From Dhillonvirus LF50P3, in the sequence record OZ035753.1: a stretch of 45,099 nucleotides of DNA. One strand, 5' to 3'. Below are positions 4,907-43,855 of the stretch, piece after piece (position 1 is the first letter of the stretch; the number at the start of each line of letters is the position of its first letter). The position numbers and the translations under genes were made by a program. The notes beneath the pieces were generated by a model. It saw only the letters and a program-made list of their open reading frames with translations. It had not been told where the DNA came from and searched no databases.

Positions 4907-5018
4907 CCCGTCCGCGGACCCCGACGAAGATTTGATGATTGACGTGAAAAATATGGAATGCGGCGCGAAGCTAAGGGCGCAAGTGCTGGATTTGCAGAAA
5001 ATAATTCGGGGGCTGTGA
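4779..5018 (+). CDS. o-spanin lipoprotein (Rz1-like), putative
   Basis: Signal peptide plus lipobox LRALTALIVVLMLSAC-GSS; short proline-containing mature part; starts inside the i-spanin ORF in the +1 frame and extends past it. Confidence 0.55.
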   Translation: MLNMLRALTALIVVLMLSACGSSNVPLMPLTESALRPPCKFDNPSADPDEDLMIDVKNMECGAKLRAQVLDLQKIIRGL

Positions 5019-5030
5019 TGGCCCCCTTTT
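5008..5030. terminator. bidirectional intrinsic terminator between convergent genes
   Basis: GGGGGC-tgtgatg-GCCCCC stem-loop followed by TTTT; lies between the o-spanin stop (5016–5018, inside the loop) and the stop of the minus-strand gene at 5032. Confidence 0.6.
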
Positions 5031-5031
5031 G

Positions 5032-5796
5032 TTAGCGCGGAATACCGCAGATTTCGTTTAACGTCTTCACGTCCAGCGCCACCGCCGTGGATTTAGGCTT
5101 GTCCGGGTATGGAATGAATTGTTCCACTTCAGGCCACGCCTTGATCAGCTTCTTATCGGTATTGTGCATATCCAGCACGCCGGTAACGGTTAGTTTGAAC
5201 GCGTCATACGTCGCGCGCAATTCGCGGCGGGCCTTGTCGTTACGGTCCAGGCGCTTGCAGAAATCATGATCCGCCGGGAAATCTGCACGACAGCGCGGCT
5301 TATAGATCGGCAGCGCTTTCCCATCCTCGTCCACTTCGCACACAGAAGCCAGCATTACTTCTTCGTACCCAGGTACAATATCGCCGAGATCGGGAGATAG
5401 CGTATTCATGTATTTATATTCCCAGTATCCGCGATGTACTCGGTATTGTAGTCCGTCACCGCTCAATGACAGTGTGCGCACATTTCCGCCTGCGTTGATT
5501 TCGAAAGTGGCGTCGTAAACTCTGCCGATGCCTTTTGGGCGGTCAGCGTTATAACTATACGTCGCCTTGTTGGTGTATACGCTTACTCCGTACATCTGCG
5601 ACGGGTCATCGCCGATTGCTTTAATGCGCGCGAGTAGCTCGGCGAAAGTGCGAATTCCTTCCGGCATACAGTCCAGCGTAATGGCGTACGCCAGGTCGCG
5701 CGAGTCCATCATGATGGATTTGGCTTCGGTCGCGATTTCGTGGTCGCGCAGGATGTTAGCCAGAATCTGGTTTTTAATGTCTTTTGTAAGTCTCAT
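5032..5796 (-). CDS. hypothetical protein encoded opposite to the structural operon
   Basis: 254-aa ORF starting MRLTKDIKNQ with RBS GAGGA 8 nt upstream. The six-frame ORF extends to 6243 but that N-terminal part is low-complexity antisense of the scaffold gene and was trimmed. Own promoter-like element upstream and terminator downstream. Confidence 0.6.
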   Translation of the reverse strand: MRLTKDIKNQILANILRDHEIATEAKSIMMDSRDLAYAITLDCMPEGIRTFAELLARIKAIGDDPSQMYGVSVYTNKATYSYNADRPKGIGRVYDATFEINAGGNVRTLSLSGDGLQYRVHRGYWEYKYMNTLSPDLGDIVPGYEEVMLASVCEVDEDGKALPIYKPRCRADFPADHDFCKRLDRNDKARRELRATYDAFKLTVTGVLDMHNTDKKLIKAWPEVEQFIPYPDKPKSTAVALDVKTLNEICGIPR

Positions 5797-5825
5797 TTTT
5801 GCGTCCTCGTTGTTGGTGTGCAACC

Positions 5826-5854
5826 AATATATGCAACCAATACGCGGATTGCAA
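5826..5854 (-). promoter_or_regulatory. sigma70-like promoter candidate for the 5032–5796 gene
   Basis: Read on the minus strand: TTGCAA, 17-nt spacer containing TTGGTTGCA, TATATT, then GGTTGCACACCAAC...GAGGAC...ATG. Nearly the same promoter and leader recur at 40380–40436. Confidence 0.45.
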
Positions 5855-5944
5855 GCGAATTTTGCGATTATTTTTATCACTGATAATATTAGAGGCGTGA
5901 AGTCGAGCGGGTGGCCCGCTCTGCCACAATCCCAGGGGGATAGC

Positions 5945-11418: not shown

Positions 11419-11422
11419 TGAA

Positions 11423-11737
11423 GCGGGACAAGCGGGACGTCCCGTTTTGTCCCGCCCCTGTGAAACTGCATACCTACTCACTCTCATTGCATAATCTAAA
11501 AGCGGGACAAGCGGGACGTCCCGTTTTGTCCCACCCCACAAAAGTGCATACGTATTCGGTTTTCGTGCATAAAACAAACGGGACAGAAAGCGGGACAAAC
11601 AAGAGGCGGGACAAAGCGGGACAGCACCCCGTCCCCGCCAGTGCTGCCGCGGTTTTCAGCCGATCGGGACAGGCGGGACAACCCCCAGTCTTTCAGACTA
11701 GACGGGGGTCAATGGCCCCCTCGTCTGAGACTGAATA
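11423..11737. repeat. CGGGAC(A) motif array with two 33-bp hairpin-palindromes and a long stem-loop (copy 1)
   Basis: Near-palindromic units GCGGGACAAGCGGGACGTCCCGTTTTGTCCC(G/A)C at 11423–11455 and 11502–11534; four direct CGGGACA sites at 11579–11623; two more at 11665–11680; imperfect long hairpin 11686–11733. The 11576–11737 part recurs at 40063–40219. Confidence 0.7.
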
Positions 11738-21876: not shown

Positions 21877-21955
21877 GGTATCATCCCCTATATTTGGTTG
21901 AGTTTTAGTATTACACCGCTCAACCAGGATTGCAACCAATTACGAGGATTTAGCT

Positions 21956-25593: not shown

Positions 25594-25623
25594 ACTATAG
25601 TGCAACCAACCTATTGGTTGCAA
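25594..25623 (-). promoter_or_regulatory. sigma70-like promoter candidate overlapping a 22-bp palindrome
   Basis: Minus-strand reading TTGCAA, 18-nt spacer, TATAGT; the -35 lies inside the palindrome TGCAACCAAcctaTTGGTTGCA (25601–25622), which also overlaps the stop of the upstream gene. Confidence 0.45.
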
Positions 25624-26081
25624 GTGAATTTTGCAACGTTTATCGCATAAATTTTCGGGACCAGATCGCTGCACGCCCGACGAATTGCCGCGATGTTCTT
25701 AGGACAGTCTTCAATGATGACCAGTTCCGATACGTCCGCATAGCAGACCATTTTGAACACCGCGCACGCTTTAAACTCTGGCGGCGGGGTGTCGTCCAGC
25801 ATGTGGCGCATAAACAACCGCCCTACGGGGAATACTTCCAATTGCTCGGCGGTGGTTTCCCAGCATTCGCGCTGCCGGTTTGTCAGATACGCTATCTCGA
25901 AGCCTTGCTCTTTATACATGCGCAACAGCGGCAGCATATCCATGTTCAGGTCTTCGCGTACGTGCGCTTTGTGCCACTTCGCCCAAAAAGTGGATTTGGT
26001 TTTTATACCCGGCACAAGGTCGGCGCGTGCATCACTCGAACCATTAATAACGCCATCCAGATCACAAATCAGTAGTTTCAT
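25611..26081 (-). CDS. HAD-superfamily phosphatase-like protein (possible nucleotidase)
   Basis: 156-aa ORF with RBS GAGGAA and the HAD motif I signature LLICDLDGV at the N-terminus. Confidence 0.5.
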   Translation of the reverse strand: MKLLICDLDGVINGSSDARADLVPGIKTKSTFWAKWHKAHVREDLNMDMLPLLRMYKEQGFEIAYLTNRQRECWETTAEQLEVFPVGRLFMRHMLDDTPPPEFKACAVFKMVCYADVSELVIIEDCPKNIAAIRRACSDLVPKIYAINVAKFTCNQ

Positions 26082-26302
26082 TTTAATTCCTCAACCAAAT
26101 CCGAACGAACAACTCTGGCGGAAAACTTGTTACACACAAGATGCCAATTTGCGGTTATGACAAGCCAGCCGGTAAGGTCCATACCCAGGATATATTCTGG
26201 ACGTGACACTCGCTTCACACGATCGCGGCGCGGGTCGATGTTATAGTCTCTTTGCATTCGGTCTACTACCGCGGGGTCGCGGTCAACGATTAAGATATTC
26301 AT
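26078..26302 (-). CDS. hypothetical protein
   Basis: 74-aa ORF from the internal ATG (MNILIVDRD); the listed ORF starts at GTG 26311. Packed between the HAD-like and Dam-like genes. Confidence 0.4.
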   Translation of the reverse strand: MNILIVDRDPAVVDRMQRDYNIDPRRDRVKRVSRPEYILGMDLTGWLVITANWHLVCNKFSARVVRSDLVEELK

Positions 26303-26768
26303 GTAACTCACTCTCGCTCATTATTTCAATTTGTGCGCTGCCGATGGGCGGCGCTTCGTCAAATATTATCAATTGCTGGCACTTGTTATTGCTCGGCCCG
26401 ACTTCACCGGTTACAGCGTGTATAAATCTCACCCGCCAGTCCAGAAGAATTATCAGGTTTGCAGTCCTCCGGGCCAGCCTCGCCCACTTCGTCGACGTGT
26501 CCTGATTCAGTAGCATGACAGTCCGGCGTCCGTGCGCTGCGCACTCGACCCACGGCAGCGGGTCGGAATACGGCGGATTGCACCACTTCCACCCTTTCAA
26601 CTCTGCCCAGTCCACATCAAGCGCGCTGTGCTCTGCCGTGAAGTAACGCGGTAGCAGATGATTGGCGTCGCTTGCCGCCATATCGTAACGGAATCGGTAT
26701 TTCCGACGAAGCGGTTTAAATAAAGCTGGCGGCGTGCGCCAGCTATCTTTTTGCTCACTCTTCAGCAT
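26283..26768 (-). CDS. dam: DNA N6-adenine methyltransferase (phage Dam-type)
   Basis: 161-aa ORF with N-terminal WRTPPALF, DMAASDANHL and the catalytic NPPY motif, matching the small phage Dam family. Confidence 0.75.
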   Translation of the reverse strand: MLKSEQKDSWRTPPALFKPLRRKYRFRYDMAASDANHLLPRYFTAEHSALDVDWAELKGWKWCNPPYSDPLPWVECAAHGRRTVMLLNQDTSTKWARLARRTANLIILLDWRVRFIHAVTGEVGPSNNKCQQLIIFDEAPPIGSAQIEIMSESELHEYLNR

Positions 26769-27219
26769 GATCTTGGTCTATCGCGTACAGGGCAATCTTA
26801 TCGCCTTTCGTCAAGATGCGCTGCACGCGCTTTGACTCCTCGGCGCTCATAGGGCGAGCGTTCGGGTATAGGCTGCCGTTTGTGGGATTGCGCCACGCCA
26901 CAAGCACCAGATCTTTCCGGTCGATCTTAGACTGGCGGCCCTTCGGTCGCACGTACGCCTCGGCCCGTTTGCAATGCTCGCGCAGACCTTCGGCAGTGAT
27001 GCGGTTTAGCGCGACGGTGGTTGTGTACCCGGTGCGCTGCATAATACCCATCAACTCATACAGCAGTTCGAAGCGCTCCTCTAACTCCTTGCGCATCTTT
27101 TCCTCGCCTTCATAGCTCGCCAGGTAGGTATCCGCCAGCGCGTTCGCCCGTTCGACCTGTTCGCGGGCTTCGAGGCATTGCGCGGCCCAGTAATTTTTCT
27201 CTTCTTGTAAAATTTTCAT
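26755..27219 (-). CDS. hypothetical protein
   Basis: ORF from MKILQEEKNYWAAQ with RBS GGAGA; promoter-like element 27266–27294 upstream; helical and charged, no confident motif. Confidence 0.5.
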   Translation of the reverse strand: MKILQEEKNYWAAQCLEAREQVERANALADTYLASYEGEEKMRKELEERFELLYELMGIMQRTGYTTTVALNRITAEGLREHCKRAEAYVRPKGRQSKIDRKDLVLVAWRNPTNGSLYPNARPMSAEESKRVQRILTKGDKIALYAIDQDHAEE

Positions 27220-27265
27220 CGTGTTGTCTCCAGGTATTAAAAAGGGCGTCCAACCGGACACCCTT

Positions 27266-27294
27266 AAGATAATGCAACCAATCTAATTATGCAA
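27266..27294 (-). promoter_or_regulatory. sigma70-like promoter candidate with tandem TTGGTTGCA elements
   Basis: Minus-strand reading aTTGGTTGCATaattagaTTGGTTGCATTATCTT: TTGCAT, 17-nt spacer, TATCTT. Confidence 0.45.
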
Positions 27295-27299
27295 CCAAT

Positions 27300-36376: not shown

Positions 36377-36895
36377 TTAATCTTCCAGTTCGAAATAAGT
36401 TTCGACGATTTCTTTTAGCTCTTTGTGGAAGTCTTCGACGTCGTCATCTTCCAGCTTAGCGATTGATTTGATCTCGAACGATTCCAGCAGGTCGTCGAAT
36501 TCATCGTTCGCATCGTCGTCATCGCCACCGGCGATAATCGCGGCATACTGCTTGATTTCGTCGCGCATTTCTGCCAGCGGATCGGCATCTTTCTTACCTT
36601 TGCCTTTCGCCGGTGCTTTTTTAGACTTAGCCGGTTTTTCGTCTTCTGCGTCTTCGTCGTCGTCATCTTCTACGACTTCTTTTTTGGCCTTACCCTTCGC
36701 CGGTGCTTTTTTAGCTTTAGCCGGTTTTTCGTCTTCGGCGTCATCGTCGTCATCTTCGGCAACTTCTTTTTTGGCCTTAGACGGCTTCTTGTCTTCCTGT
36801 TTACCAACGGCAGCGCCAACGGTTTCATAATGCTTTGCAATGGTTTCCAGTGCTACTACGCCGCGAGTGATCAGGTTTACGATTTGCTCAAACAT
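36377..36895 (-). CDS. acidic repeat protein
   Basis: 172-aa ORF from MFEQIVNLITRG with RBS GGAGAT; contains two copies of a Lys/Ala-rich plus poly-Asp/Glu unit (KKPSKAKKEVAEDDDDDAEDEKPAKAKKAPAKGKAKKEVVEDDDDEDAEDEKPAKSKKAPAKGKGKK) from a DNA tandem repeat, then a very acidic C-terminus. The listed start at 37075 runs into the intergenic region and was trimmed. Confidence 0.55.
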   Translation of the reverse strand: MFEQIVNLITRGVVALETIAKHYETVGAAVGKQEDKKPSKAKKEVAEDDDDDAEDEKPAKAKKAPAKGKAKKEVVEDDDDEDAEDEKPAKSKKAPAKGKGKKDADPLAEMRDEIKQYAAIIAGGDDDDANDEFDDLLESFEIKSIAKLEDDDVEDFHKELKEIVETYFELED

Positions 36896-37132
36896 GGTAT
36901 ATCTCCGATTGGTTAAGTTTAGGTGTCGGCAGTTAACTTCGTCGGTGGCCTTAACATATTGCCAGGTTACGCGTTCTCCCGTTCGGGTAGTGGACCTGGT
37001 TATATAATCACGGTTGGGAATCCTGACACTTCGATCCGGCCCCTGCGTTGCCCCTCTCCAGTTTGCGTCCTGCATCCTGTCGACGGGGGGAATAATAGAT
37101 TGGTTGCAGGATGGGTGTCAACAACTAATTTC

Positions 37133-37297: not shown

Positions 37298-37627
37298 ATG
37301 AATGTAAACGACGCAATCGAAATGTTAACGAAGACTGTTTGCAGTGAGACAAGCCGGTCATGGGCATATACCGATGCCGTGGGGGCTGTGTTATTTGAAA
37401 TCGAACGACTGCGGCTTACCGAAAAAGAATTGCGCGCCAGGCTGGAACTACTCAACGGTACAGCAGCAAGCAAGCTGCAAAAACACAATGAAGAAATGGA
37501 AGAATACAAAAAGCAGGTTATCCGTTTGCGCGCCGAGGGCAAATCTTGGGCGATGATTGCCGAGTTGACCGGAATTAATCAGAGCACAGTGCGCTCCTGG
37601 GTACGCAATAATAAAACTTCTAAGTAA
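37298..37627 (+). CDS. small helix-turn-helix DNA-binding protein (putative transcriptional regulator)
   Basis: 109-aa ORF; coiled-coil-like middle and C-terminal HTH-like segment KSWAMIAELTGINQSTVRSWVRN; first gene of the right-hand plus-strand block. Confidence 0.6.
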   Translation: MNVNDAIEMLTKTVCSETSRSWAYTDAVGAVLFEIERLRLTEKELRARLELLNGTAASKLQKHNEEMEEYKKQVIRLRAEGKSWAMIAELTGINQSTVRSWVRNNKTSK

Positions 37628-39902: not shown

Positions 39903-39977
39903 ATCCTGCGCGCATTGGTTGCCGATATGGGAATTCCCATATCGCTAAATGGTTAAATTTTGCGCGCATTGGTTGCC
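39901..39977. repeat. 23-bp direct repeats flanking a perfect 22-bp palindrome
   Basis: AAATCCTGCGCGCATTGGTTGCC (39901–39923) and AAATTTTGCGCGCATTGGTTGCC (39955–39977); between them CGATATGGGAATTCCCATATCG (39923–39944) is its own reverse complement; a third partial copy GTATTGGTTGCCG at 40001–40013. Confidence 0.7.
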
Positions 39978-40062
39978 ATTTTGAGTGTTTTTATCAGGTC
40001 GTATTGGTTGCCGTGTAGTGTGAATATAGTGAATAGTTATGCAGTTTTGTTGCATAAAGTAA

Positions 40063-40219
40063 GCGGGACAGAAAGCGGGACAAACAAGGGGCGGGACAAA
40101 GCGGGACAGCACCCCCGTCCCGCCCCGGATGGCGCGGCCTGGAGAGGAGCGGGACAGGCGGGACAACCCCCAGTCTTTCAGACTAGACGGGGGTCAATGG
40201 CCCCCCTCGTCTGAGACTG
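40063..40219. repeat. CGGGAC(A) motif array and long stem-loop (copy 2)
   Basis: GCGGGACA at 40063, 40075, 40091, 40101, 40149 and 40158, then the hairpin CAGTCTTTCAGACTAGACGGGGGTCAATGGCCCCCCTCGTCTGAGACTG (40171–40219); near-identical to 11576–11737. Confidence 0.7.
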
Positions 40220-40379
40220 AATAAAATCCGGGGATTGCAAAACACACGGCAGCATGATGCGAAGTTCGGTCGTCGACGAACTAGGCAACCAATGCGGGTC
40301 GCATTATGCCGAGTGAAAAATGCAGTTTGCAGCCACAGCGGATAGCGATCAACTTTTTCATGCGCGTGATTAACATTGG

Positions 40380-40408
40380 TTGCACCCTACCTGGCACCCT
40401 GCTATATT
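40380..40408 (+). promoter_or_regulatory. sigma70-like promoter candidate with conserved leader
   Basis: TTGCAC (inside ATTGGTTGCAC), 17-nt spacer, TATATT, then TTGGTTGCACACCAACGTGAGGAC...ATG at 40437; the -10 and leader closely match 5797–5831 on the minus strand. Confidence 0.45.
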
Positions 40409-40436
40409 GGTTGCACACCAACGTGAGGACTGAACA

Positions 40437-40742
40437 ATGAAAGCGATTATCTGGAATTACGCAATGGCCCTGGCAAAGCTGAACGAAGCGAAAGCGCTGA
40501 ACGGCAACGTAGACCGTGCGCGCCAGTTTGCGACACTGGCATACCAGTCAATCATGTGTGCGCTAGACGATATGGACGCCAGCATGGATGACCTGGGTCC
40601 GCTGCGTAAGGCAATCCATGAATACGCGCTGGCATTCTCCCGTGAGCGCCTGGCTTATCGCTTCGGTATTGGCGAGAAGGCAGTGACAAACGTCGCCAGG
40701 ATTAAAGCCCAGCGTGAGCTATTCGCCCAGCTTGCGAAATAA
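40437..40742 (+). CDS. hypothetical protein
   Basis: 101-aa ORF with RBS GAGGAC and the promoter candidate just upstream. Confidence 0.5.
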   Translation: MKAIIWNYAMALAKLNEAKALNGNVDRARQFATLAYQSIMCALDDMDASMDDLGPLRKAIHEYALAFSRERLAYRFGIGEKAVTNVARIKAQRELFAQLAK

Positions 40743-40751
40743 GGGGCCAAA

Positions 40752-41021
40752 ATGGGACGTAGACGAGCAAAACAGCTTTCGTGGCATATTCCCCTGCATT
40801 GCATACGAATATGGGCTAAGAATGCGACTGAGGGCGATTCTGTATTCTGGTGCTATCGCGATGACGTAAAGCCACTGACGCAGACTCGCTACTTACACCA
40901 GTTCGCAGCACAACACGATTTCAGGGTGCGGACTTCCTTGCAACCAATGGGAATACGTATTACATTACGCCAGAAGCCCGCCATTGAGCGGGTGGGCAAA
41001 CACTGGAGACTGAGCAAATGA
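40752..41021 (+). CDS. hypothetical protein
   Basis: 89-aa ORF with RBS AAGGGG; ends in the repeated junction GGAGACTGAGCAAATGA. Confidence 0.5.
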   Translation: MGRRRAKQLSWHIPLHCIRIWAKNATEGDSVFWCYRDDVKPLTQTRYLHQFAAQHDFRVRTSLQPMGIRITLRQKPAIERVGKHWRLSK

Positions 41022-43650: not shown

Positions 43651-43855
43651 TTGCTTGACTCGCAACCAACACAGGGGCCATACTGCAACCAATCAACTGG
43701 AGGAGTAATCAAGATGGCACGTAAAGATATTTGGGTATTAGCGATCTGGACCACCGCGGCTTTTATCGGCATGGTTATTTGCGAATTGATATAGCCCGTC
43801 GCAATACGGACCGTGGTATATTGTCCACGGTCCACTAATCAGGAATTAATTAAAT

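What the first reader, a model, noticed from the sequence alone, without database searches (positions are those of the whole stretch)
5032..5796. Unrecognised 254-aa gene on the opposite strand between the spanin pair and the scaffold gene
Seen directly: a minus-strand ORF with a good RBS sits inside the otherwise plus-strand head gene block. It has a bidirectional terminator at its 3' end and the conserved promoter and leader element at its 5' end, the same element that drives the first gene after the primase. The protein has no transmembrane segment and no motif I can place. Inference: a moron-like insertion, possibly a host-takeover, exclusion or anti-defence factor co-regulated with early genes.
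Basis: partly seen in the sequence, partly recalled or inferred. Interest (0 to 1): 0.5.

Follow-up and report, generated by a model that had tools for sequence, protein, structure and literature searches.

The report
Known phage gene nmad5, function unresolved
The "unrecognised" gene is the already described nmad5 gene of Dhillonvirus coliphages: a conserved but dispensable early gene whose point mutation lets these phages escape the bacterial Tmn defence, and whose biochemical job is still unknown and is probably not DNA modification.

Summary
The sequence features are real. There is a minus-strand ORF at 5032-5796 (254 aa) with a GAGGA RBS. It has a sigma-70-like promoter that shares a 20-nt element with the promoter of the first gene after the helicase-primase. 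A hairpin terminator sits between it and the convergent spanin gene.

The gene is not unrecognised. It matches Pfam PF18757 (Nmad5) over its full length (E 2e-56). It is the nmad5 gene of Dhillonvirus. It occupies this position in about 145 of 149 sequenced relatives, with dN/dS 0.12.

It has been studied (PMC11846954). K216E lets these phages escape the Tmn defence. Deletion is viable but gives no escape. The gene could not be cloned. The window carries wild-type K216.

New here:
- The phage has no base-hypermodification genes.
- Two AlphaFold models (pLDDT 75 and 82) have no relative among solved structures.
- K216 lies in the family's signature motif (T-x-x-K-L-x-x-x-W-P).
- Nmad5 genes occur in replication or recombination operons, nin regions and hypermodification clusters. 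In at least four unrelated lineages, counting Dhillonvirus, they are lone opposite-strand genes inside late operons.

Best reading: a self-contained early accessory gene that encodes a non-enzymatic binding protein. The molecular function is still open.

The parts
5032..5796 (-). nmad5 coding sequence (254 aa plus stop), Nmad5 family protein
   Evidence: ORF and translation. Pfam PF18757: E 2.1e-56, 191.7 bits against a cutoff of 27, covering protein residues 1-253 and profile positions 1-206 of 206. PHROG 1965. 100% identical to a protein already in NCBI (P0001).
5804..5808 (-). Shine-Dalgarno GAGGA, 7 nt upstream of the ATG
   Evidence: Read directly from the sequence. Conserved as GAGGAC in 11 relatives.
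5826..5854 (-). sigma-70-like promoter TTGCAA-17-TATATT
   Evidence: Consensus scan, 9 of 12 matches. The same architecture recurs at other intergenic sites in the window. Activity and timing are not shown.
5812..5831 (-). 20-nt element (-10 hexamer plus the start of the leader), identical to 40403-40422 (+)
   Evidence: the repeat finder pair I14, 20 nt, 100% complementary. Sequences read.
5819..5840 (-). two copies of the phage-wide box TTGGTTGCA (5840-5832 and 5827-5819)
   Evidence: 28 hits against 11.4 expected, reached by 0 of 100 shuffles. Site-by-site listing.
40403..40422 (+). twin of the promoter/leader element, before ORF 40437-40742
5008..5026 (.). hairpin terminator between the convergent o-spanin gene and nmad5
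   Evidence: Called on both strands. Minus-strand RNA fold is -13.7 kcal/mol. A terminator is annotated at the equivalent place in phage PTXU06.
5149..5151 (-). codon AAG for Lys216, the residue whose change to Glu gives escape from Tmn in relatives; wild type here
   Evidence: and the codon read. K216E/K296E comes from PMC11846954. The +80 offset is confirmed by the 334-aa annotation of SM_S22 CDS0006. K216 is invariant in 33 Dhillonvirus representatives and is the majority residue in the family consensus.
5035..5256 (-). residues 181-254: the most constrained module (long helix, T213-K216-L217-W221-P222 motif, flexible linker, C-terminal tail ...TLNEICGIPR)
   Evidence: dN/dS 0.023. Near-zero entropy. 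Family-wide invariant residues L217, W221 and N247. This region carries most of the matches to distant homologues.
5497..5661 (-). residues 46-100: the variable middle segment
   Evidence: Highest entropy. dN/dS 0.31, which is relaxed but not positive selection.

Best explanation
Shown: this is the nmad5 gene of a Dhillonvirus (HK578-like) coliphage. It is a real, conserved but dispensable gene. It forms its own transcription unit on the opposite strand of the head-gene block.

Inferred:
1. It is transcribed by host RNA polymerase from a promoter of the type used in the replication and early region. It would therefore be made before, and independently of, the surrounding late genes.
2. Its product is not an enzyme of DNA base modification in this phage. 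It is a non-catalytic binding protein of a fold with no solved relative.
3. Its working surface is the invariant patch formed by the N-terminal strand (MRLT), the motif T213-x-x-K216-L217-x-x-x-W221-P222 and the conserved C-terminal tail. Through this patch it engages a conserved partner in DNA replication or recombination, or in the host.
4. The Tmn defence reads out, or is blocked through, that same surface. This would explain why the charge reversal K216E abolishes Tmn defence while deleting the gene does not.
For: Identity:
- Pfam Nmad5, full length.
- 84-100% identical 254-aa proteins in all Dhillonvirus clusters.
- 190 phage records match, 149 at 60% identity or more.

Reality and constraint:
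- 12 DNA copies are intact, dN/dS 0.116 overall and 0.023 for aa 181-254.

Autonomous unit and promoter type.

Not base modification here:
- The window encodes DUF2800/PD-(D/E)XK exonuclease, Enc34-type ssDNA-binding protein, PolA, SNF2 helicase, Dam and helicase-primase. It encodes no 5-hmdU kinase, aGPT-Pplase, hydroxymethylase, PLP or radical-SAM enzyme.
- BASEL phenotyping describes Queuovirinae as remarkably restriction-resistant 'particularly if compared to' Dhillonvirus (PMC8594841).
- The M6 5-NedU pathway was reconstituted from purified gp54, gp51, gp53 and gp52 without Nmad5 (PMC8989533).

No enzyme-like fold:
- Two AF2 models, pLDDT 74.6 and 81.9.
- Foldseek against viral models finds only other Nmad5 proteins.
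- A PDB profile search finds nothing.

Binding-surface reading:
- Family-wide invariant residues are L217, W221 and N247. R2, L3, G104, T213, P222, L246, G251 and P253 are at least 90% conserved. These are mostly structural or hydrophobic residues.
- In both models residue 2 forms a beta-bridge next to T213.
- The C-terminal tail follows a low-confidence linker at 233-241.

Context:
- In the sister gut-phage group the homologous replication operon contains Nmad5 just upstream of the DUF2800 exonuclease (PolA 66%, SNF2 66%, DUF2800 55% identical to the window).
- Other lineages place it next to PolA, primase-helicase, PD-(D/E)XK, RecT-like or SbcC-like genes, or in lambdoid nin regions.

Tmn genetics and cloning failure: PMC11846954.

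Tmn is known to sense an early, replisome-associated phage protein, T2 RIIB, by direct binding (preprint PMC13001434).
Against:
- The contexts are heterogeneous. In L046, L047 and L049 the gene sits in structural modules, so a link to replication is not universal.
- Two lineages do place Nmad5 inside thymidine-hypermodification clusters, so a modification-related role in those phages is not excluded.
- Absence of a fold match is negative evidence only, and parts of the model (aa 60-70, 120-135, 233-254) are of low confidence.
- Expression timing is inferred from promoter sequence alone.
- Conserved polar residues (R2, T4, N14, T213, K233, N247, C250) could still form an unrecognised active site.
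Confidence: 0.5

Rival explanations
1. Nmad5 is an anti-defence protein. It is an early inhibitor of some host immune protein, and K216E is a specificity change that makes it also inhibit the tested Tmn allele, a gain of function.
For: - The escape allele is a missense change, while the deletion stays sensitive. This is the signature of a gain of function (PMC11846954).
- Moron-like, self-contained units in late operons of four unrelated lineages.
- Dispensable and occasionally lost.
- No enzyme fold.
- Variable middle segment.
- Anti-Tmn homologues in the same phages show allele-specific inhibition (PMC11846954).
Against: - The part carrying K216 is invariant from Escherichia to Vibrio, Pseudomonas and Bordetella phages. 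That fits a conserved core target better than a fast-evolving immune protein.
- The middle segment shows relaxed rather than positive selection, dN/dS 0.31.
- No hit in PADLOC or NCBIfam.
- No defence system is known to be blocked by wild-type Nmad5.
Confidence: 0.2
2. Nmad5 is itself a protein pattern sensed by Tmn, as RIIB is in T2. A second, redundant trigger in the phage explains why the deletion is still sensitive.
For: - Independent escape mutants of two phages hit the same residue (PMC11846954).
- Tmn is activated by direct binding of an early phage protein. A single residue of RIIB separates binding from activation (preprint PMC13001434).
- K216 is a charged residue in the most conserved motif. 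That it is surface-exposed is assumed, not measured.
Against: - If a second trigger exists, a point mutation in Nmad5 alone should not give full escape, yet it does (PMC11846954).
- SM_S24, which naturally lacks aa ~171-248, is reported as still inhibited by Tmn (PMC11846954).
- No sequence relation to RIIB: hhalign probability 0.1%.
Confidence: 0.12
3. Nmad5 is a DNA or nucleotide modification enzyme, or an obligatory accessory to one, as its name and the 2025 paper assume. Tmn would then sense the modified DNA.
For: - The family name.
- Location inside thymidine-hypermodification clusters in M6-like and related phages, next to 5-hmdU DNA kinase, PLP enzyme, thymidylate-synthase-like enzyme and PolA (PMC9476957).
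- The phage does encode DNA methyltransferases.
Against: - No hypermodification partner genes in the window.
- About 16 of the 18 lineages I examined lack them near Nmad5.
- The M6 pathway was reconstituted without Nmad5 (PMC8989533).
- No enzyme-like fold.
- Dhillonviruses are described as restriction-sensitive relative to truly modified phages (PMC8594841).
- A loss of modification should be phenocopied by the deletion, and it is not (PMC11846954).
Confidence: 0.1
4. The ORF is a chance open frame or a pseudogene and is not expressed.
For: None found. An in-frame upstream extension (to 6243) exists and has misled one annotation.
Against: - Full-length Pfam match.
- dN/dS 0.12 with dS 0.49.
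- Constant length of 254 aa in 33 cluster representatives.
- Missense escape mutants and a reversion experiment (PMC11846954).
Confidence: 0.01

Closest known systems
nmad5 of Dhillonvirus phages SM_S22 (CDS0006) and SM_A8 (CDS7), Yamashita et al. 2025 (PMC11846954)
   Same: - Same gene: 89.8% amino-acid identity to SM_S22.
- Same position between the spanin and scaffold genes.
- Same K216.
- The published properties should carry over: K216E gives Tmn escape, the deletion is viable, the gene is not clonable.
   Different: - Only allelic differences, concentrated in aa 46-100.
- SM_S22 is annotated 80 codons too long, as a 334-aa CDS that overlaps the scaffold gene. This is why the paper's K296 equals K216.
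- The window has no extra gene between promoter and nmad5. HK578-like relatives carry one.
Nmad5 proteins in the thymidine-hypermodification clusters of M6/YuA-like Pseudomonas and Bordetella phages (PF18757; PMC9476957)
   Same: - Same Pfam family.
- About 40% identity over aa 173-253, including the T-x-x-K-L-x-x-x-W-P motif and the C-terminal tail.
- Located close to a family A DNA polymerase.
   Different: - Those genes lie beside 5-hmdU DNA kinase, aGPT-Pplase, PLP and radical-SAM enzymes. The window has none of these.
- They are shorter, about 200 aa, and lack the Dhillonvirus insert at about aa 125-150.
Nmad5 at the head of the replication operon of gut phages (L003/L033; Klebsiella phage VLCpiS11a group)
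   Same: - Homologous replication module: primase 48%, DUF2800 55%, PolA 66% and SNF2 66% identical to the window.
- Nmad5 shares the same termini.
   Different: - There Nmad5 is co-directional and inside the operon, upstream of the exonuclease.
- It is only 26% identical, far more diverged than the enzymes. It has either evolved much faster or been acquired separately.
T2 RIIB as trigger of Tmn (preprint PMC13001434)
   Same: A non-structural phage protein in which a single residue decides whether Tmn defends. RIIB is documented as early; for Nmad5 early expression is only inferred.
   Different: - No sequence relation.
- rIIB nonsense mutants escape, whereas a nmad5 deletion does not (PMC11846954).
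- RIIB is membrane-associated. Nmad5 has no hydrophobic segment.
Classical morons of lambdoid and HK97-like phages (own knowledge: promoter-gene-terminator units inserted between late genes)
   Same: - Own promoter and terminator.
- Opposite strand, between head genes.
- Dispensable.
   Different: Fixed at one site across a whole genus and under strong purifying selection. The gene family is also found inside replication operons.

Membership tests
Pfam PF18757 Nmad5 (nucleotide modification associated domain 5) | Full-length profile match above the curated gathering score | tested here: met
   E 2.1e-56, 191.7 bits against a cutoff of 27, protein residues 1-253 on profile positions 1-206 of 206. 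Also PHROG 1965, E 1.4e-61.
Pfam PF18757 Nmad5 (nucleotide modification associated domain 5) | Family signature residues: N-terminal R-L-T, a GG pair, T-x-x-K-L-x-x-x-W-P, and C-terminal L-N-x-x-C-G-x-P | tested here: met
   R2, L3, T4, G103, G104, T213, K216, L217, W221, P222, L246, N247, C250, G251 and P253 are all present.
Pfam PF18757 Nmad5 (nucleotide modification associated domain 5) | Gene neighbourhood of nucleotide or base modification enzymes, the context behind the family's name | tested here: not met
   - The neighbours are spanin and scaffold genes.
- The whole window has no 5-hmdU kinase, aGPT-Pplase, hydroxymethylase, PLP or radical-SAM genes.
- This context is a property of a subset of members, 2 of about 18 lineages surveyed. 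It is not a requirement of the Pfam model.
Thymidine hypermodification pathway component | Required for, or catalysing, a step in the synthesis of a modified base | not testable with these tools
   The literature reports M6 5-NedU synthesis reconstituted from purified gp54, gp51, gp53 and gp52 only (PMC8989533). No enzyme-like fold was found. Nucleoside analysis of Dhillonvirus DNA is needed.
Moron (autonomous accessory unit in a late operon) | Own promoter and terminator, inserted between late genes | tested here: met
   Promoter 5854-5826 and hairpin 5008-5026 by consensus scans. Opposite strand within the head block. Function of the signals is not shown.
Moron (autonomous accessory unit in a late operon) | Variable presence among closely related genomes | tested here: not met
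   145 of about 149 Dhillonvirus records cover at least 80% of the protein. The position is kept in a lineage only 64% identical. Only SM_S24, JL1 and Teewinot carry deletions.
Tmn trigger (RIIB-like pattern) | Loss of the protein abolishes defence, and the protein binds or activates Tmn | not testable with these tools
   Published: missense K216E escapes, but the deletion does not (PMC11846954). SM_S24, with a natural deletion, is reported as Tmn-sensitive. There is no sequence relation to RIIB.
Known defence or anti-defence protein families (PADLOC-DB 2.0), NCBIfam | Profile match | tested here: not met
   No match at E up to 0.1 in PADLOC or up to 0.01 in NCBIfam.

The most novel reading that the evidence does not exclude
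Nmad5 is misnamed. It would be a mobile, self-contained early-gene cassette found across proteobacterial phages, not a nucleotide-modification factor. It would encode a binder of a new fold whose invariant N-terminal strand, T-x-x-K-L-x-x-x-W-P patch and C-terminal tail dock onto a conserved host or replisome hub. The Tmn defence would monitor, or be blocked through, exactly that patch. Nmad5 and RIIB would then be two unrelated examples of one rule: Tmn watches phage proteins that attach to the replication machinery.
Probability: 0.25. Interest if true: 0.6.

Novelty: already known. Interest (0 to 1): 0.3.

Why it matters
The gene and its family are known, so the finding adds no new element.

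What remains open is what a widespread phage protein family actually does. The family gave about 96 cluster representatives at 50% identity in a 1.8-billion-protein library.

The evidence here weakens the assumption in the literature that Dhillonvirus Nmad5 is a DNA-modification enzyme and that Tmn senses modified DNA. It points instead to a protein-protein surface centred on K216.

That matters for engineering therapeutic phages that evade Tmn. It also matters for understanding what Tmn recognises.

Tried and rejected
- Relation to the known Tmn trigger RIIB. hhalign probability 0.1%. Rejected.
- Known defence or anti-defence and NCBIfam models. No hits.
- Rfam on the whole window. No RNA family.
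- Strict linkage to the PolA/DUF2800 replication module. I first favoured this. I then weakened it because lambdoid phages without PolA and structural-module insertions also carry Nmad5.
- Host-nuclease inhibitor of the lambda Gam type. I considered this because of neighbouring exonuclease and annealase genes. Nothing supports it: the pI is 6.1, so the protein lacks the strong acidity I would expect of a DNA mimic, and there is no fold match.
- Positive selection in the variable segment. dN/dS is 0.31, so selection is only relaxed.
- A family-wide scan of viral contigs with the 90-sequence alignment failed because no block was conserved enough.
- Iyer et al. 2013, the source of the family name, is not in the held library. 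Its reasoning could not be checked.
- No transcriptome of a Dhillonvirus infection was found.

Full report
WHAT THE WINDOW IS

The 2-kb stretch around the finding matches 158 phage records at 80-97% identity. Almost all are Escherichia or Shigella phages of the genus Dhillonvirus (HK578-like siphoviruses).

The gene order matches annotated relatives such as Bas84: terminase, portal, head morphogenesis, spanins, the ORF in question, scaffold, major capsid, tail genes. A minus-strand replication operon follows. It encodes a DUF2800/PD-(D/E)XK exonuclease, an Enc34-type ssDNA-binding protein, a family A polymerase, an SNF2 helicase and Dam. A divergent HTH gene and a helicase-primase complete the region.

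THE OBSERVATION

- The ORF runs from ATG 5796 to TAA 5034-5032 on the minus strand and encodes 254 aa.
- GAGGA lies 7 nt before the start.
- A sigma-70-like promoter, TTGCAA-17-TATATT, lies at 5854-5826.
- The 20 nt TATATTGGTTGCACACCAAC (5831-5812, minus) are identical to 40403-40422 (plus). The second copy lies just before ORF 40437-40742, the first sizeable ORF I could place after the helicase-primase gene.
- The core TTGGTTGCA is a phage-wide box: 28 hits with at most one mismatch against 11.4 expected, reached by none of 100 shuffles.
- The exact or near-exact copies of the box lie mostly between genes. There the box either supplies a TTGCA -35 element or sits just upstream of, or over, the -10.
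- The hairpin at 5008-5026 is called as a terminator on both strands. The T-run is better on the plus strand.
- There is no hydrophobic segment.
- The longer in-frame ORF (to 6243) is not the gene. All homologues start at MRLT. The extension runs through the promoter and into the scaffold gene.

IDENTITY

The protein is a full-length member of Pfam PF18757, Nmad5 (E 2.1e-56), and of PHROG 1965. An identical protein is already in NCBI. Several GenBank records call the orthologue an Nmad5 domain protein.

A 2025 paper (PMC11846954) studied exactly this gene in phages SM_S22 and SM_A8.

- Spontaneous escape from the Tmn defence (a KAP/YobI-type transmembrane NTPase) mapped to Lys216Glu. This is written Lys296Glu in SM_S22.
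- Reverting the mutation restored sensitivity, and introducing it gave resistance.
- Deleting nmad5 was tolerated but did not give escape.
- The gene could not be cloned, apparently because it is toxic.

I confirmed that SM_S22 CDS0006 is annotated as 334 aa. That is 80 codons too long and overlaps the scaffold gene, so K296 is K216. The window has the wild-type AAG codon at 5151-5149.

CONSERVATION

- A tblastn of the window protein finds 190 phage records, 149 at 60% identity or more. Of all records, 145 cover at least 80% of the protein.
- Twelve DNA copies are intact and keep K216. dN/dS is 0.116 overall: 0.067 for aa 1-45, 0.31 for aa 46-100 and 0.023 for aa 181-254.
- Among 33 full-length cluster representatives, residues 1-20 and 181-254 are nearly invariant. 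Residues 51-95 and 116-127 vary.
- A lineage whose Nmad5 is only 64% identical keeps the gene at the same place.
- The gene is nevertheless dispensable in nature. SM_S24 has a 238-nt out-of-frame deletion that removes about aa 171-248. JL1 and Teewinot keep only the first 54-62 codons. Truncated variants occur in metagenomes.

The gene is therefore a conserved accessory gene, not a recent insertion.

The variable spot is next to it. The promoter box stays about 115 nt from the scaffold start. Between the promoter and nmad5, relatives carry either nothing or one extra gene of at least four unrelated kinds, in most cases followed by a GGGGCGAAAGCCCC hairpin.

WHAT THE PROTEIN LOOKS LIKE

Two AlphaFold2 models were made, from 32- and 51-sequence alignments. 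Their mean pLDDT is 74.6 and 81.9, and pTM is 0.73 and 0.78. They agree on the following layout:

- three N-terminal helices;
- a small beta sheet with a poorly predicted insert;
- a long helix at 178-209;
- two short helices at 214-227;
- a low-confidence linker at 233-241;
- a short C-terminal helix.

Residue 2 forms a beta-bridge beside T213.

Across 90 diverse family members the invariant residues are L217, W221 and N247. The consensus reads RLTK...GG...ADH.L...T..KL.E.WPE....P...K...LN...GLP. The Tmn-escape residue K216 therefore sits inside the family's signature motif.

WHERE THE FAMILY LIVES

I examined about 18 independent lineages.

Replication, recombination or nucleotide-metabolism operons:
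- gut phages L003/L033, upstream of the DUF2800 exonuclease;
- L005, after PolA;
- Jilinvirus ECO1230-10, between helicase and primase;
- Edwardsiella eiAU, after the primase;
- L042, after primase-helicase, PolA and HNH genes;
- L041, between a PD-(D/E)XK nuclease and RecT-like and SbcC-like genes;
- L043;
- L050, with an exonuclease, dNMP kinase and PolA.

Lambdoid nin regions: SPN3UB and L052.

Thymidine-hypermodification clusters: M6-like L040, and L051 (PMC9476957).

Other positions: co-directional next to a tail protein in L048, and among many small early-region genes in Bas95.

Lone opposite-strand genes inside structural operons, unexpectedly, in three further unrelated phages:
- L046, HK97-like, between connector and capsid genes;
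- L047, Vibrio phage P23, next to the capsid gene;
- L049, an E217-like myovirus, between sheath and tail terminator.

L049 has a near-consensus promoter 34 nt upstream. L046 and L047 have two-way hairpins right after the stop.

The Dhillonvirus arrangement is thus one instance of a recurrent pattern: a portable promoter-gene-terminator unit that needs its own expression programme.

WHY I DO NOT THINK IT MODIFIES DNA HERE

- The window has none of the partner enzymes.
- About 16 of the 18 lineages lack them nearby.
- The M6 pathway was rebuilt from four purified enzymes without Nmad5 (PMC8989533).
- BASEL phenotyping contrasts the restriction-resistant, truly modified Queuovirinae with Dhillonvirus (PMC8594841).
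- The fold resembles no enzyme.
- A loss of modification should be phenocopied by the deletion, and it is not (PMC11846954).

HOW IT MOST LIKELY WORKS

Shown: the identity of the gene, the strength of selection on it, its autonomous signals, and the location of K216 in the signature motif.

Inferred: the gene is expressed with the replication and early genes. The protein acts by binding, through the patch made of the N-terminal strand, the T213-P222 motif and the C-terminal tail. Its partner is conserved across proteobacterial phage-host systems, either a replication or recombination component or a host hub. That would also explain the toxicity.

Tmn is now reported to be switched on by direct contact with an early, replisome-associated phage protein, RIIB of T2. 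A single residue separates binding from activation (preprint PMC13001434). Nmad5 is unrelated to RIIB, but the genetics are similar in kind.

K216E escapes and the deletion does not. The mutation therefore cannot be a simple loss of function. Three readings remain:
- the mutant protein shields or sequesters the real trigger;
- it has become an inhibitor of Tmn (rival 1);
- Nmad5 is one of two triggers (rival 2, least consistent with the data).

I put 0.5 on the general 'early, non-catalytic binding protein, not a modification enzyme' reading. I put 0.2 on the dedicated anti-defence version, 0.12 on the direct-trigger version and 0.1 on the modification model.

VERDICT

It is wrong on 'unrecognised' and on being a variable insertion.

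The gene and family are already known and published, so novelty is low. The open question is the biochemical role of Nmad5. This analysis narrows that role but does not settle it.

Noticed in passing
L008-L016, about 2350-2990 in each locus (the equivalent window position is the 148-nt gap 5797-5944): The interval between the conserved promoter and the nmad5 start is a cargo slot. Relatives carry nothing or one extra gene of at least four unrelated kinds: about 104 aa, 135 aa (HK578_006-like), 53 aa (EK99P-1) and about 170 aa. In most cases the extra gene is followed by the hairpin GGGGCGAAAGCCCC, which has no T-run.
   Followed up: partly
L012 2353-2919: One cargo gene resembles the central domain of the DNA polymerase III beta sliding clamp (motif DVRYYLNGV...ASDGHRL). 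The Pfam DNA_pol3_beta_2 match has E 7e-4 and 20.3 bits, below the cutoff of 27.
   Followed up: partly
window 5819-5840, 21931-21939, 25601-25622, 27273-27298, 37100-37108, 39915-40012, 40376-40415, 40939-40947, 43661-43692: The box TTGGTTGCA, palindromic at 25601-25622, marks at least eight intergenic, promoter-like sites. It supplies a TTGCA -35 element or flanks the -10. It may also be the operator of a phage regulator. The HTH protein at 37298-37627 is a candidate.
   Followed up: partly
window 26755-27261 (-): This ORF is 84% identical to SM_S22 CDS0035. By the paper's gene numbering that is most likely the anti-Tmn gene 'ORF35' (my inference). It has its own double TTGGTTGCA promoter at 27273-27298. 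The phage would then carry both Tmn-related loci. Most anti-Tmn homologues were reported inactive against the tested Tmn (PMC11846954).
   Followed up: partly
window 26078-26311 (-): A 74-77-aa ORF (MNILIVDRDP...) lies between the Dam methyltransferase and the HAD phosphatase genes. Its length and position match the description of Ksap1, the Dhillonvirus protein sensed by Klebsiella Avs2 (PMC11564622). The sequence was not compared.
   Followed up: no
window 11421-11720 and 40028-40205: A 178-nt direct repeat (85% identity) is packed with GCGGGACA iterons and inverted copies. One copy lies before the tape-measure gene. The other lies in the long non-coding stretch after the helicase-primase gene. 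It could be an origin or a protein-binding array (D2, D9, I1, I19).
   Followed up: no
window 36377-37075 (-): The first gene of the replication operon encodes a 232-aa protein with two 90-nt tandem repeats and long Asp/Glu runs. It has no Pfam family. It occupies roughly the position where the sister gut phages carry their 162-169-aa gene and Nmad5.
   Followed up: no
L046 7001-7663; L047 7001-7630; L049 7001-7633: In three unrelated phages Nmad5 is a lone opposite-strand gene inside the head or tail operons. They are an HK97-like siphovirus, Vibrio phage P23 and an E217-like myovirus. Each unit has promoter-like or two-way terminator-like signals.
   Followed up: partly
L044 (SM_S24) 1501-2055; JL1 and Teewinot records: There are natural knock-outs of nmad5. 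SM_S24 has a 238-nt out-of-frame deletion. JL1 and Teewinot keep only the first 54-62 codons. SM_S24 is reported as Tmn-sensitive, which agrees with the engineered deletion (PMC11846954).
   Followed up: partly
L053 (SM_S22) 461-1465: The published SM_S22 nmad5 CDS is over-extended by 80 codons and overlaps the scaffold gene by about 200 nt on the other strand. Residue numbers in the paper (K296) need -80 to match other phages.
   Followed up: yes
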